Positions 27,001-63,000 of a stretch of 64,000 nucleotides of DNA are shown piece after piece. The stretch is from Escherichia coli O157:H7 (GTDB lineage Bacteria > Pseudomonadota > Gammaproteobacteria > Enterobacterales > Enterobacteriaceae): the NCBI RefSeq assembly GCF_013167455.1, contig NZ_CP038328.1, one strand, 5' to 3'. The position numbers are program-made. How positions within the stretch are numbered: position 1 is the stretch's first letter; every line of letters starts with the position of its first letter.

Positions 27001-30000
27001 TCTATTGATTATTGGCGGTGAAACTGCAGGCGGCAAAGCGGTGACGGATTCAGTTTTGATCTCTGTGAAGGATAATAAAGTCACAGTACAAAACTAACGC
27101 TTCAGGGCCCCGGTAAAGGGGCCCTGCTATCAATTTGTCATTTCAATTACGCGAAATTTATATGAACGCAATAATATCGCCTGATTATTACTATGTTCTT
27201 ACTGTTGCTGGTCAGTCTAATGCCATGGCGTATGGCGAAGGACTGCCATTACCGGACAGGGAAGATGCGCCTCATCCCAGAATTAAACAATTAGCGAGAT
27301 TTGCGCATACGCATCCCGGAGGCCCGTCATGTCACTTTAACGACATTATTCCACTGACTCACTGCCCACACGATGTTCAGGATATGCAGAGTTATCACCA
27401 TCCTCTGGCAACGAATCATCAAACACAGTACGGCACCGTTGGCCAGGCACTGCATATTGCACGGAAATTACTGCCCTTCATTCCTGATAATGCAGGGATT
27501 CTCATCGTTCCGTGTTGCCGTGGCGGATCGGCTTTTACCGCAGGCAGCGAGGGGACATATTCAGAACGGCACGGAGCCAGCCATGATGCTTGTCGTTGGG
27601 GAACGGATACTCCGCTATACCAGGATTTAGTCAGCAGAACGCGAGCCGCACTGGTAAAAAATCCGCAGAACAAATTCCTCGGCGTATGCTGGATGCAAGG
27701 CGAATTTGACTTAATGACCAGTGACTACGCGTCACATCCTCAACACTTTAATCATATGGTTGAAGCCTTTCGTAGGGATCTAAAACAATACCATTCTCAG
27801 CTTAATAATATTACTGACGCGCCGTGGTTTTGCGGCGATACCACCTGGTACTGGAAAGAAAATTTCCCTCATGCGTATGAAGCTATTTATGGCAATTATC
27901 AAAATAATATTTTAGCTAATATTATTTTCGTCGACTTCCAGCAACAAGGTGCAAGAGGGCTGACGAACGCGCCTGATGAAGATCCGGACGATTTAAGCAC
28001 GGGATATTACGGTTCAGCGTACCGGTCACCGGAGAACTGGACGACGGCACTGCGAAGCAGTCATTTCAGCTCAGCAGCCCGTCGGGGGATTATTTCTGAC
28101 AGGTTTGTAGAAGCAATTTTGCAGTTTTGGCGCGAAAGGTGAGCGTTCATTAATTTGATTTATTCGCATCCATCAGCGCTTTTAACTCCTCCGGCGTGCG
28201 GCACTATAACGACTTCCACAACAAGGAGCCATTTTCTTATACCACTTTCAGTGACCATCCGCTTATGCCACCACCCTCTACGCAACTGTTTGCAGAGCAC
28301 CTTCCCACCGAGTGGATACAGCACTTCCTGACGCTTTCTGCTCATGCGACCGTTCGTCGTCTTAACCTGAGCGTGGATGGCGAAGCGGGGATGAACCTGC
28401 TGGCGCCCGCAGCGCTGTCACCCAGGCGCGTCAGCGCGTGGGGGCCGCCCCGGTGGAATGGCTCTTCCGCCAGACCACACAGACATGGGGCGCGGAACGT
28501 TACCTGAAGGATGACTGGCACGGCCTGCAACTTTTTGCCATTGATGGCGCACAGTTCAGGACACCTGATGAACCCGAGCTGCGTGAATATTATGGCTCTG
28601 CCAACACATCCACTGAGCGGCAGAGCGCCTACCCCGTCATGCGTCTGGTGGCGTTAATGAATCTGGGAATCACATTCTACTGAATGCCATGACCGCGCCT
28701 ACCGGCGGAGCGATACGGCGTGAGGCAACAAAAGCGGCGTCAGAGATCAGCTTTAAGTTCGCGTTCCAGTTTATCGTGACAGAAATGATAGTGCTGGGAA
28801 ACACGGCGTCACCGGGGACTATCCCGAAACGACTGGAGCATCTGCGGGGGCTCTGGAAGTGGTGTTCATAACAAAACGCCCCCGACCATCAAGGGCGAGG
28901 GCGGTTAAGATATCAAAAACCCGTTATCCTGTGAAACACAGTGCCGCCCCGCTTAAGTGAACGGCATTGTGTTTCTGAGGGACCTTAATTTTCCCTGATT
29001 CTCTGACGTTCCTTACCATTGATATTTCCTTCATTCCTCACCAGAGAAATAAAAAATCACTATACTCATCAAAATATGAGATTACCTTTATTCAGGTGAT
29101 CACCTTACTATTTTTTACGGAAAATAAATTATGAATAACAAGAAATCACTGACAAACCACCTGTAAAATGTCAATCATTTTAGTTCAATTGCCTTTGTCA
29201 TGATTATCTTTTTATCGTCCTGACGATACTATTAACAATTGCAATTTTTATACCCCTCCTGAACAAATAGAAAAGAACTAATATATTCGTTTATAATTCT
29301 GGTAATCCTGGCATCATACGTTTAAAACTTAAGATATTTATTTTATCATCATCATGGTTCCAGAGACTATTGGTCAGCTGGAAATGCCAGCCTTTTCGTG
29401 CCAGCTATATTTGTCCAGTGTGTCACCCCATCCAAAAATCATCCACATCCTGACGTTACGTTAGATATAGAGAAAACAGGTTGTACTGTGCAATATGCAA
29501 ACCGCATAAGCGAATATAATTTCTAAGTTGATATTGTCTGGCTGTTGGGAGCTAAGCAATATAAATATCGCCAGTTGCCAGAACGGTTATATAGACCAGG
29601 AGCGTTTCGGCTCCTGGCCTGTTTTGGACATATTATCAGTCAGCCACTAATAGCGGACTAGGGACACCAGATGATGAAACAAACAGCCCTTTTACGGCAC
29701 GGGTTGCAGCCACATGCAGTAACGCGCGCTCATTAAATAATGCATCACGCTGTTCAACGGGATCATCGGATGCTAATGCTTTTATTTCCGGCACAACGCC
29801 TTCGTTAATCCCCACCAGGAACACATACTGGAACTCAAGCCCTTTAATACGGTGCATCGTTGCAACCCGCACGCCAGGGCGTGCATCGCTGTCACCGCTA
29901 TCATTGCCTAAATTAAATGTCTCAATTCCGGCGTCATTCAGTGCTGATGCGTAGCGGTCACAAGCATGTTTAGTACGCGCAGTAATGCAGATATCCTGAG

Positions 30001-60000: not shown

Positions 60001-63000
60001 TATCAATGGCTTCCAGTAAATCGCTACAGCAGGCAATTGCCAACATAAAAATCTGGCACAAGGGTGAACAGCGCGCGCCGCATAAACCATTGTTACTGCT
60101 ATACGTATTAGCGGGATACCTGAATGGACATCCGCGCCTTTTCGATTATGGCACGGAAATCTACGAACCTCTGCACAGTTTACTGGAACGTTTTGGGCCA
60201 CAGCGTTCACAGTACCGACCTGATATGCCGTTCTGGCGATTACAAGGCGACGGAATCTGGCAATTACACAATGCCGAGCGTTGCTCAACAGCAGGGAGCA
60301 GCCGACAACCGCCAGTGAAGGAACTGAACGAATACCACGTTGCAGGCGGTTTCGATGAACAGCACTACGCCCTGGTAACCGGCAATAAAAAACTCATCAA
60401 TACTCTGGCGCAACAGATACTCGAAGCGCACTTCACCGAGAGTATTCAGGAAGAAATCGCTGACGAGCTGGGTTTTGATCTCCAGCAAACCCGTAAACAG
60501 CGCGACCCGTTATTTCGCAAAAATGTATTACGCGCTTATAACTACCAGTGCGCAATATGTGGCTTTAATATGCGCCACGATGACACCACCGTCGCGCTGG
60601 AAGCGGCGCATATAAAATGGAAACAGCACGGCGGCCCTTGTGAAATCCCCAATGGTCTGGCGCTTTGCGCAATACACCATAAAGCCTTTGATAAAGGATC
60701 GATTGGCCTGGATGAAAATATGCGGGTACTGGTCTCGGATGCGGTAAACGGCGGAGGGATCGTTGAGAGATTATTCTGGGATTTTGACGGGAAAACTATT
60801 GCGTTGCCGCAGGTGCGTAAAAATTACCCTTATGAGGGGTTTGTGGGTGAGAGATAGACATTCTGTTTACTAATAATTTATAGCCATTCTCTGCTCCTGC
60901 ATCAGAGATATGATGCAGGAATATTAAATACCAGCCACCTATAAATTATGATTTATTAATTTCTGCTTCAGTTAAATCCCTCTGAAAATAGACCCGTTTT
61001 AGTTCCATACATCTTTAAAAATCCCGACCAAATAATGAGATCAGCAAACATCTATTTGAAACGTTGGTTCTCATCCTCAAGATCCTTGATTATTTTAATA
61101 TCAGAAAATTCCATACCGCCGTATCTGGACTTGCAGTTGTAGTAAGTGGCTTCAGATAAGCCACATCTTTAACAGTTCGCCCGTATTCAAGCGATTTAAT
61201 CACGGCGATAATCTGATGCTCAGTAAAAGGGGCTTTACGAATAGCGATCTCCTTCATTGGCAGATTGATTATGCCGGAGGATCTCTAAATGTGAATGGCA
61301 CGATTATGCGGGATATTTACTGTACCAGTCCAACCCTCTGCTTACTGCAATACCAATCAAGAGGGATGGTCCACATTGACGTTTCAAAATCGATTTCTGA
61401 CCAGCGAGCAAAATGCAGCTTACTGGACCGAATAAAGATAAGCAGAGTGAGTTCTGTCGTACAGTGGGTTAGCGGTCTGCCGGTGTAGCTGTCTATTTTG
61501 TCAAGCAACTCAGGGATACGCTTTAACTCCAGCGCCGGACGATGCTGTCGATTACTGGAAGCAACCGCCCCCGACATCTCTTGCGCCGGATCGTAATCAA
61601 TTAACCCGCTTTGCACTGCATAACGCATGATGGCCGTGGTGCGCTGTTGAAGGCGGGAAGCCACTTCAAGACGCCCGGATTTCTCCACGGCTTTAATAGG
61701 AATTAACAGATCACGGGTGCCTAGTTCAGCAATGTTGCGAGTACCAATTGTCGGGAAGATATTGTCCTCCAGGCTCTTTTTTACACGATTAGCATGATCT
61801 TCCGACCATTTTTGGTTGGTTACGAGCCACTCTCTGGCAACCTTCTCGAAAGTAATAATCTCTTTCGCCTGCTCTTCTTTCACAGCACGCTTATGCTCAC
61901 GAGGATCGATACCAGCAGCTACCAGCTTTCTGGCCTCTTCCCTTTTCTTCCGCGCATCCGCCAGTGAAACATCCGGGTAAACGCCGAACGCCATCAAATG
62001 TTGTTTACCGCCAAAACGGAAACGAAATCGCCAATACTTTGAACCGCCAGGTTTTACAAGTAAGGACATGCCGTCGCCGTCAACAAGTGAATACTCTTTC
62101 TCCTCAGGTTTCGCAGAGCGAACTTTAGTATCCGTTAGGGCCATAATGGTCTTCCTTCCATTGGTATCTCGTGAGTATACAAGCAATATCGAATCGGCAA
62201 ATATACTCATTAGTATACTCACAAGCCTGTTGATGTGGGTTGGTTCAGGTTGACTTCAGTTGAGGAGAAAAGCTGGAAAAGCCTTGCGTGGCGCGGATTT
62301 CAGGCATAAAAAAAGACCTCAGTTGAGGTCTATTTACATACTTTTGGTGCCGAAGGCCGGACTCGAACCTAAGTCTCCATAACCTGCTGTAATCACGTTC
62401 CTATTAGCCTTTAAAAGAACAATCGTAGGACCTTTTTGTTCTAGGGGCTACATCTTAAGTTTGATCCGCTGGACGGAATCAAACCGAGTGTTCGTGGCGG
62501 CACAAATCATTAACGTGCCATACCTGCCTTTTGATGTTTATGGAGGTCTAGTGGGTCGGGAGGAAAGAACATTTGTCAGCTATGTGGATGTTAAGTAAAC
62601 GCCACTGCGTTCGGATTTTGAAACCAGTTAAACCCCGTCAGACCTTGTTCAGAATAACTATTTAACTCAATGTTATTTATATGAATTAAGCCATTCAGCG
62701 TCAAAGTAAAACGCCACCGTAACGCCTACGTAACGCACCCGCATTTTGCTGTTTTATTCACTCTTATAGAAACAAAGAGCTGATGAAACGTGAGGCTATC
62801 AGCATCTAATGAACACTGTTCATCCATACAGCATGAAAATTCATAAACTTACACTTGAGCTACTTTCTCAGCTTGTCCCACCGAACCGCAGATACAATAC
62901 CCCAGTTGCCGCTAGGATTAGGCCTACGCCATTTTGCTGTCTCCATGCTACGAAGATACTCAAGAGCTTCAGAAAACGTGCCAAACCGCTTCTGAGCCGT

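What the first reader, a model, noticed from the sequence alone, without database searches (positions are those of the whole stretch)
28143..62369. About 34-kb island between nanS and a leuX 3'-end repeat, with IS and integrase debris at its edges
Everything from the end of nanS to the 25-nt leuX 3'-end copy is cargo-like: a decayed IS4-family transposase, the defence modules, an HNH nuclease, and a truncated P4-type integrase directly beside the tRNA fragment. tRNA 3' end followed by a P4-type integrase is the classic genomic-island junction, and the fragment rather than a whole tRNA suggests one unit of a tandem island array at leuX. Several segments look markedly AT-rich by eye (not computed).
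Basis: partly seen in the sequence, partly recalled or inferred. Interest (0 to 1): 0.55.

Follow-up and report, generated by a model that had tools for sequence, protein, structure and literature searches.

The report
Known O157 leuX defence island SpLE6
The 34-kb stretch is the already catalogued SpLE6 element (part of O-island 172) of E. coli O157:H7. It is an immobile genomic island beside the leuX tRNA gene and carries three published anti-phage systems (Zorya II, Druantia III, ARMADA II), so the finding is correct but not new.

Summary
The window is E. coli O157:H7 (99.99% identical to strain Sakai). The finding's span, 28143-62369, matches Sakai's annotated 'phage-like element SpLE6' (window 28145-62292) plus the 25-nt leuX 3'-end repeat at 62345-62369.

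The intact leuX lies 10.2 kb beyond the window, with the element SpLE5 in between. The 'tandem island array' reading is therefore right, and it has already been published.

The contents are:
- an IS4-family remnant;
- ARMADA II (armDCBA), Druantia III (druEH) and Zorya II (zorABE);
- a restriction endonuclease that recognises phosphorothioate-modified DNA (SBD-HNH);
- an IS3-family remnant;
- a P4-type integrase cut to 261 of 422 residues.

The three defence systems were tested experimentally in this same serotype in 2025 preprints.

One nuance is mine. The island looks composite. The 31.7-kb defence block (28198-59921) sits between nanS and a conserved SBD-HNH gene. It ends in a decayed second copy of nanM. 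Other E. coli show less decayed versions of that copy, and the same scar travels with the block into pheV islands. This suggests the block arrived by recombination in the nan region rather than as cargo of the leuX integrase.

Only druH and Zorya are AT-rich; the island as a whole has the same GC content as the window. Novelty: already known. Interest: low.

The parts
28146..28197 (.). 52 bp of the normal sequence downstream of nanS. It is still collinear with block-free E. coli, and the novel junction lies at 28197/28198.
   Evidence: strain XPFI_3_2 is collinear up to 28197. Thousands of genomes match these 52 bp under 'hypothetical protein | HNH endonuclease'.
28198..28992 (+). Decayed IS4-family (ISCro3-like) transposase remnant, 56% GC.
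   Evidence: 93% identity in three pieces to IS4-family transposase genes; Sakai repeat_region 'ISCro3 Family: IS4 partial'.
28993..29635 (.). AT-rich spacer (35.6% GC) at the left end of the defence block.
   Evidence: homology with the block of TW14425 starts at 29390.
29636..31750 (-). armD: UvrD/GajB-like helicase with an N-terminal extension of about 240 aa (ARMADA II).
   Evidence: GajB, E = 2e-36; Pfam UvrD-helicase and UvrD_C, residues 241-693; PMC12458937.
31747..38088 (-). armC: YprA-family DEAD/DEAH helicase-nuclease, 2113 aa (ARMADA II).
   Evidence: partial DruE matches, E = 5e-104; MZB/DUF1998 domain PF09369, E = 7e-13.
38088..43022 (-). armB: PglX/DrmMI-like adenine DNA methyltransferase, 1644 aa (ARMADA II).
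   Evidence: type IIG methyltransferase model, E = 2e-286; DrmMI, E = 6e-57.
43025..45883 (-). armA: SNF2 helicase like BrxHII/DrmD, 952 aa (ARMADA II).
   Evidence: DrmD, E = 1e-99; BrxHII, E = 9e-60.
46107..52430 (-). druE: Druantia type III helicase-nuclease, 2107 aa.
   Evidence: DruE3 model, 2184.9 bits, full length.
52421..55780 (-). druH: Druantia type III partner protein (STY4851/ECs_5259 family), 1119 aa, 39.5% GC.
   Evidence: DruH3 model, 2554.9 bits, positions 1-1117 of 1117.
55992..57644 (+). zorA: Zorya type II, MotA-like.
   Evidence: ZorA2, E = 1e-302; the alignment starts at residue 20 of the ORF that begins at 55935.
57651..58358 (+). zorB: Zorya type II, MotB-like.
   Evidence: ZorB2, E = 2e-104.
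58362..59465 (+). zorE: Zorya type II HNH nuclease effector.
   Evidence: ZorE2, E = 4e-176.
59466..59655 (+). Spacer after zorE (34% GC). A terminator-like inverted repeat follows the stop codon. The spacer is unrelated to nanC.
59656..59933 (+). nanM scar: a decayed second copy of nanM. It keeps the ribosome-binding site and the first 16 nt, has a 337-bp internal deletion, then nanM nt 354-598. It is 93.5% identical to the resident nanM.
   Evidence: Sakai annotates it as ECs_5255 'yjhT'.
59985..60857 (+). Restriction endonuclease that binds phosphorothioate-modified DNA (SBD-HNH). It is the conserved neighbour of nanS in block-free E. coli.
   Evidence: NF045808, 416.6 bits; 96-97% identical to the nanS-adjacent gene of other strains.
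60858..61316 (-). IS3-family transposase remnant that cuts off the integrase gene.
   Evidence: 61038-61314 is 84.8% identical to an IS3-family transposase gene; 'transposase' is annotated there in O157 RefSeq records.
61317..62144 (-). P4-type tyrosine integrase remnant: residues 1-261 of 422. The C-terminal part, including the catalytic region, is missing.
62345..62369 (-). Copy of the last 25 nt of leuX: the att direct repeat that separates SpLE6 from SpLE5.
62370..64000 (.). Distal end of the neighbouring element SpLE5. It runs out of the window towards the intact leuX and includes an HTH regulator at 62860-63324.

Best explanation
This is SpLE6, the distal 34 kb of O-island 172 of E. coli O157:H7. 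It is an immobilised, composite genomic island in the hypervariable region between nanS and leuX.

What it does (shown by others): it protects the cell from phages through three systems.
- Zorya II: ZorAB, a MotAB-like membrane complex, plus the ZorE HNH nuclease.
- Druantia III: DruH plus the DruE helicase-nuclease.
- ARMADA II: ArmA SNF2 helicase, ArmB methyltransferase, ArmC YprA-type helicase-nuclease and ArmD UvrD-like helicase.
- In addition, an orphan restriction enzyme specific for phosphorothioate-modified DNA.

How the right edge arose (shown by comparison): a P4-type integrase element once sat directly beside leuX. Later the P4-like SpLE5 integrated into leuX. That displaced the original 3' end of the tRNA gene, which is the 25-nt repeat, together with everything behind it.

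Why it is immobile (shown): an IS3-family insertion cut the older integrase to 261 of 422 residues, and no distal repeat survives. The element therefore cannot excise.

How the defence block arrived (inferred): the 31.7-kb block (28198-59921) most likely did not come as cargo of that integrase. It is separated from the integrase by the conserved nanS-side flank (SBD-HNH). It ends in a decayed duplicate of nanM. This points to entry by recombination in the nan region, with one end anchored by homology and the other joined illegitimately at or near the IS4 element. The duplicate nanM-nanS copy then decayed.
For: Identity:
- The window is 99.994% identical to Sakai.
- The SpLE5 and SpLE6 feature coordinates map to the finding.
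- EDL933 is 100% identical over window 45000-64000.

Systems:
- PADLOC, NCBIfam and Pfam matches.
- ARMADA II cloned from the O157:H7 strain NCTC 12900 protects against phages (PMC12458937).

Tandem array:
- Only two leuX repeats exist in Sakai, one in leuX and one at the SpLE5/SpLE6 border.
- A 96%-identical intact integrase lies beside an intact leuX in another isolate.
- O145:H28 has the block beside an intact leuX without SpLE5.

Immobility:
- The integrase is truncated and there is no third repeat.
- No excised circles were detected for any SpLE (PMC2669165).

Composite origin:
- Relative to a block-free strain, the insertion is exactly 28198-59921, and the SBD-HNH gene is retained next to nanS.
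- The nanM scar is present.
- Strain LR-60 has the same ZorE-spacer-nanM junction but different deletion end points.
- I predicted an undecayed ZorE-spacer-nanM-nanS arrangement and found it in four genomes: TW14425, S43, MB06022 and GF4-3.
- 559 genomes hold at least 80% of the zorE 3' end plus spacer plus nanM sequence.
- The O157-type scar, with 18 bp of SBD-HNH upstream sequence, sits inside islands at the pheV position in J6 and SX12, flanked by IS elements.
Against: - The order of events at the nan side is not rooted. The TW14425-type arrangement, in which the block replaces gntP-fim-nanC, could be ancestral or derived.
- The nanM scar is not closer to TW14425's nanM (94.7%) than to other alleles (97.1% to XPFI_3_2).
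- The authors of PMC12458937 read integrase fragments in such immobile elements as vestiges of the delivering recombinase. I did not examine leuX elements that they consider still active and that carry the block.
- The SBD-HNH flank could itself be the far end of a still older leuX element.
Confidence: 0.8

Rival explanations
1. The whole 34 kb is a single classical genomic island. The P4-type integrase delivered it into leuX with the three defence systems as cargo, and it then decayed in place through integrase truncation and loss of the distal repeat.
For: - The integrase remnant and the leuX repeat sit at one edge.
- Related intact integrases at leuX carry other defence cargo: type I restriction-modification, a TIR protein and an SBD-HNH enzyme.
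- PMC12458937 proposes this for immobile ARMADA elements at tRNA-Leu.
Against: - Between the integrase remnant and the block lies the SBD-HNH gene, in the same orientation and at 96-97% identity to the gene that neighbours nanS in block-free strains.
- The block ends in a duplicate nanM that exists in graded states of decay in other genomes.
- Four genomes hold the block with a single intact nanM-nanS copy and a different left junction next to uxuA.
- No distal repeat is found.
Confidence: 0.2
2. The region is not an island but ancestral E. coli DNA that most lineages have lost.
For: The island's GC content (47.7%) equals that of the window. The block occurs in several phylogroups and 66 serotypes.
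Against: - It is present in only about 10% of complete genomes.
- It is flanked by IS and integrase debris and an att repeat.
- The locus carries unrelated cargo in other strains: BREX-1, Wadjet, and fec or sgc genes.
- The block also occurs at the pheV position.
- Its internal composition is two-part: 49-53% GC against 38-40% GC.
Confidence: 0.02
3. It is a decayed prophage, as the name 'phage-like element' suggests.
For: It has an integrase of the phage P4 type, and it is named SpLE6.
Against: - The named defence genes, IS remnants and the nanM scar fill the coding capacity, and no structural, lysis or replication genes are annotated or detected.
Confidence: 0.02

Closest known systems
SpLE6 of E. 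coli O157:H7 Sakai (with SpLE5, it corresponds to O-island 172 of EDL933)
   Same: The sequence is 99.994% identical, and the boundaries agree to within 2 bp at nanS. The finding's right end adds the 25-nt repeat and the 51-nt gap.
   Different: Nothing; the finding is this element. The window holds only the distal 1.6 kb of SpLE5 and does not reach the intact leuX.
[quoted passage not shown]
   Same: The nine genes, their order and their orientation are the same. The published experiments used O157:H7 strains EDL933 and NCTC 12900.
   Different: Those papers do not mention the nanM fragment or nanS. They treat the integrase fragment as a vestige of the delivering element.
KpLE2 of E. coli K-12, the leuX-associated phage-like element
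   Same: It occupies the same chromosomal slot between leuX and nanS, and K-12 keeps a degraded SBD-HNH fragment next to nanS.
   Different: The cargo is entirely different (sgc genes, topAI, yjhR). yjhR is unrelated to the ARMADA proteins.
Integrase-bearing islands at the pheV position that carry the same block (strains SX12 and J6)
   Same: The ARMADA, Druantia and Zorya genes are 98-99% identical, and these islands include the O157-type nanM scar.
   Different: They sit at a different tRNA locus. The block is bracketed by IS1 and ISKpn26. SX12's island has an intact integrase and an antirestriction/RadC/CbtA module at the far end.

Membership tests
tRNA-associated genomic island with a P4-type integrase | A copy of the tRNA 3' end forms an att repeat at the boundary. 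| tested here: met
   An exact 25-nt copy lies at 62345-62369, and 0 of 100 shuffles gave a match. The second copy is in the intact leuX of Sakai.
tRNA-associated genomic island with a P4-type integrase | A second (distal) direct repeat closes the element. | tested here: not met
   No further copy was found in the window or the Sakai loci, allowing up to 4 mismatches in 25 nt, 2 in 18 or 1 in 14.
tRNA-associated genomic island with a P4-type integrase | A tyrosine integrase gene lies next to the att site. | tested here: met
   NF007246 positions 6-272 of 413 match, and the remnant is 96% identical to an intact 422-aa integrase. Only residues 1-261 remain, so it is non-functional.
tRNA-associated genomic island with a P4-type integrase | Presence varies among close relatives at the same locus. 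| tested here: met
   514 of 5426 genomes hold at least 80% of window 26000-50000. K-12, XPFI_3_2 and LR-60 carry other cargo at the locus.
tRNA-associated genomic island with a P4-type integrase | Base composition differs from that of the host. | tested here: inconclusive
   The island is 47.7% GC, the same as the window. Only druH, zorABE and the spacers are AT-rich, at 32-40% GC.
Zorya type II | ZorA, ZorB and the ZorE HNH nuclease are encoded in one operon. | tested here: met
   ZorA2 E = 1e-302, ZorB2 E = 2e-104, ZorE2 E = 4e-176. The genes are contiguous on the + strand.
Druantia type III | DruH and DruE are adjacent and co-directional. | tested here: met
   DruH3 scores 2554.9 bits and DruE3 2184.9 bits, both full length. 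The genes overlap by 10 nt.
ARMADA type II | Strict gene order: BrxHII-like helicase, PglX-like methyltransferase, YprA-like helicase, GajB-like helicase. | tested here: met
   The order is ArmA (DrmD/BrxHII), ArmB (type IIG/DrmMI/PglX), ArmC (DruE-like) and ArmD (GajB), all on the - strand. The definition is taken from PMC12458937.
ARMADA type II | The YprA-family hallmark, a Zn-binding DUF1998/MZB domain, is present in ArmC. | tested here: met
   PF09369 matches with E = 7e-13 in the C-terminal half of ArmC.
ARMADA type II | ArmD has a RelE-like N-terminal domain, and ArmC has a C-terminal Vsr-type nuclease domain. | tested here: inconclusive
   Pfam gives no significant hit in ArmD residues 1-240 or in the ArmC C-terminus. 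PADLOC shows only a weak ZorE-like match at ArmC residues 2021-2096. Structure prediction was not run.
Restriction endonuclease specific for phosphorothioate-modified DNA (SBD-HNH) | The protein passes the NCBIfam NF045808 model above its cut-off. | tested here: met
   It scores 416.6 bits against a cut-off of 180, over model positions 2-275 of 284.
Prophage | Phage structural, lysis or replication genes are present. | tested here: not met
   None appear among the ORFs or annotations of 28143-62369. PMC2323221 says the same of all SpLEs.

The most novel reading that the evidence does not exclude
The ARMADA-Druantia-Zorya block of E. coli has its home at the nan locus and spreads mainly by recombination through flanking nan genes. 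tRNA-targeting elements pick it up only secondarily, through IS elements. On this reading the leuX integrase remnant in O157 is an unrelated bystander, and the nanM scar is a lineage marker that traces every copy, including those at pheV, back to one nan-locus event.
Probability: 0.5. Interest if true: 0.3.

Novelty: already known. Interest (0 to 1): 0.15.

Why it matters
The island accounts for much of the phage resistance of EHEC O157:H7. This is relevant to phage therapy and biocontrol, but it has been published. The only added value here is evolutionary. The nanM scar gives a simple sequence marker for reconstructing how this widely shared triple-defence block moved within E. coli. It also cautions against assuming that an adjacent integrase fragment delivered the neighbouring cargo.

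Tried and rejected
- A distal leuX repeat near nanS or anywhere else in the window and the Sakai loci: none found.
- An intact tRNA in the window: none.
- Rfam families in the window: none.
- K-12 yjhR as a remnant of ArmD or another ARMADA gene: no DNA similarity and no tblastn hit, so rejected.
- A clean 12-bp microhomology at the junction between the nanM scar and the SBD-HNH upstream region: BLAST overlap suggested it. Inspection showed only patchy similarity (6 of 9 bases) with a 1-nt overlap. The internal nanM deletion has a 3-nt 'TAA' microhomology.
- Testing whether the nanM scar is closest to the nanM allele of TW14425, which would support that arrangement as the donor: it is not (94.7% against 97.1% to XPFI_3_2).
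- A global AT bias of the island: rejected.
- The context of the tRNA-Phe copy in ATCC 8739: not examined, because I had no coordinates for it.

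
Full report
**Observation.** nanS ends at 28142. The 25 nt at 62345-62369 are the exact reverse complement of the last 25 nt of leuX. This is the only match in the window even with three mismatches allowed, and none of 100 shuffles produced one. No intact tRNA gene is present in the window.

**Identity.** The window is E. coli O157:H7. It is 99.994% identical to strain Sakai on the reverse strand, and window position w corresponds to Sakai position 5419791 - w. Sakai's own annotation carries a feature 'phage-like element SpLE6' at 5357499-5391646, which is window 28145-62292. 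It also carries 'SpLE5' at 5347213-5357447, directly after the intact leuX at 5347126-5347210. The finding is therefore a rediscovery of SpLE6. EDL933 is 100% identical over window 45000-64000. A 2025 preprint places these genes (z5894-z5902) on O-island 172 of EDL933.

**Anatomy, left to right.**
- 28146-28197: 52 bp that still match the normal sequence downstream of nanS.
- 28198-28992: an IS4-family remnant, partly annotated in Sakai as partial ISCro3.
- 28993-29635: an AT-rich spacer.
- 29636-45883, minus strand: armD, armC, armB and armA. These are a GajB-like UvrD helicase, a YprA-type helicase with an MZB/DUF1998 domain, a PglX/DrmMI-like methyltransferase and a BrxHII/DrmD-like SNF2 helicase.
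- 46107-55780, minus strand: druE and druH, with full-length Druantia III matches.
- 55992-59465, plus strand: zorA, zorB and zorE, Zorya II.
- 59466-59655: a 190-bp spacer with a terminator-like hairpin.
- 59656-59933: a fragment of nanM.
- 59985-60857: a restriction endonuclease specific for phosphorothioate-modified DNA.
- 60858-61316: an IS3-family remnant.
- 61317-62144: an integrase remnant covering residues 1-261 of a 422-residue P4-type enzyme.
- 62345-62369: the leuX repeat.

**Composition.** The island as a whole is 47.7% GC, identical to the window. The ARMADA genes and druE are 49-53% GC. druH, zorABE and the spacers are 32-40% GC. The 'AT-rich by eye' remark is therefore true only for the Zorya-druH part and the short spacers.

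**Island status and tandem array.**
- K-12 is collinear with the window from fim through nanS up to 28145 and then carries KpLE2-type genes.
- Strain XPFI_3_2 is collinear up to 28197 and then carries SBD-HNH and a BREX-1 system.
- LR-60 carries a Wadjet system further on.
- Only 514 of 5426 complete genomes hold at least 80% of window 26000-50000. Only 307 hold the O157-type right end with the integrase remnant and repeat.
- Sakai has exactly two leuX 3'-end copies, one in leuX and one at the SpLE5/SpLE6 border.
- An isolate with a 96%-identical but intact integrase has it directly beside an intact leuX.
- O145:H28 has the same defence block beside an intact leuX without SpLE5.

The repeat at 62345-62369 is therefore the original leuX 3' end, displaced when SpLE5 integrated. 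The Figure 5B legend of PMC12458937 states this explicitly: an immobilised ARMADA element with integrase fragments, and a later P4-like element in the O157:H7 strain NCTC 12900.

**Function (from the literature, not tested here).**
- Deleting zorABE, druHE or armABCD in EDL933 lowers phage resistance. [quoted passage not shown]
- ARMADA II cloned from NCTC 12900 protects by a direct, non-abortive mechanism (PMC12458937).
- No excised circles were detected for any SpLE (PMC2669165). This fits the truncated integrase and the absence of a distal repeat.

**What I add: the island looks composite.**
- Compared with a block-free strain, the inserted DNA is 28198-59921. The SBD-HNH gene to its right is 96-97% identical to, and in the same orientation as, the gene that normally neighbours nanS. 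Only about 1.5 kb (the IS3 remnant plus the integrase remnant) is left of whatever the leuX integrase once carried.
- The block ends in a second, decayed nanM. It starts exactly after the position of the nanC stop codon and keeps the nanM ribosome-binding site and start codon. It has a 337-bp internal deletion and a further deletion running into the SBD-HNH upstream region. It is only 93.5% identical to the resident nanM, so it is not a recent internal duplication.
- LR-60 has the same ZorE-spacer-nanM junction with different deletion end points and retains the HNH gene that normally follows nanS.
- I predicted that an undecayed version should exist and searched with a chimeric query of the zorE 3' end, the spacer, and full nanM-nanS. 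Four genomes (TW14425, S43, MB06022, GF4-3) match it end to end. In TW14425 and MB06022 the block lies between uxuA and a single intact nanM-nanS and replaces gntP-fim-nanC.
- In all, 559 genomes hold at least 80% of the zorE 3' end plus spacer plus nanM sequence. The junction is therefore shared by most or all E. coli copies.
- In J6 and SX12 the block, or part of it, lies in an island at the pheV position. It is bracketed by IS elements and still carries the O157-type scar plus 18 bp of SBD-HNH upstream sequence. Those copies must have come from a nan-locus copy.

Taken together, the block most likely entered the O157 lineage by recombination in the nan region rather than through the leuX integrase. 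The order of events is not rooted, and I rate this reading at about 0.5-0.6.

**Verdict.** The element is already known: it was annotated in the Sakai genome, and its defence content and tandem context were published in 2025. The nanM-scar analysis is a modest refinement. Interest is low.

Noticed in passing
window 59656-59933: A decayed second copy of nanM lies inside the island, 93.5% identical to the resident nanM at 25991-27097. It has a 337-bp internal deletion at a 3-nt 'TAA' microhomology. Sakai annotates it as a separate 'yjhT' CDS (ECs_5255).
   Followed up: yes
L011/L012 (TW14425) and L013 (MB06022); corresponds to window 13548-29389: Four genomes match ZorE-spacer joined to a single, intact nanM-nanS copy. 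In the two whose left flank I examined (TW14425 and MB06022), the block replaces gntP, the whole fim operon and nanC. These two strains therefore lack type 1 fimbriae genes at this locus.
   Followed up: partly
L014/L008/L015 (SX12) and L004 (J6): The same block (only druH and Zorya in J6) sits in integrase-bearing islands at the pheV position. It is flanked by IS1 and ISKpn26 and carries the nan-locus scar. SX12's island ends in an antirestriction/RadC/CbtA module next to yghD.
   Followed up: partly
window 59985-60857: The restriction endonuclease specific for phosphorothioate-modified DNA has no dnd or ssp modification genes nearby. The deletion that made the nanM scar ends 52 bp upstream of its start codon, so its native promoter may be gone. 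A longer ORF starting at 59850 runs from the scar into the gene.
   Followed up: no
window 52421-52430, 38088, 31747-31750: The coding regions of druH and druE overlap by 10 nt, armB and armC by 1 nt, and armC and armD by 4 nt. This suggests translational coupling within the operons.
   Followed up: no
window 22165-22325 and 23230-23390: A stretch of 74% DNA similarity links fimE and fimB, the known paralogous recombinases of the fim switch. The fimB-fimE-nanC stretch (22001-25971) is itself AT-rich at 38% GC, lower than most of the island.
   Followed up: no
window 6736-7464: hypT (yjiE) is annotated as a pseudogene in Sakai, whereas TW14425 and MB06022 have a full 912-nt gene.
   Followed up: no
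window 1-4021: The left end of the window holds an 'invasin' gene that is cut by the window edge (ECs_5290), plus ECs_5289. Other strains have kptA and yjiJ beside yjiH instead. This is probably another strain-specific segment.
   Followed up: no
window 62860-63324: An HTH regulator at the distal end of SpLE5 resembles restriction-modification control proteins and CapH-type regulators in PADLOC (E = 7e-18).
   Followed up: no
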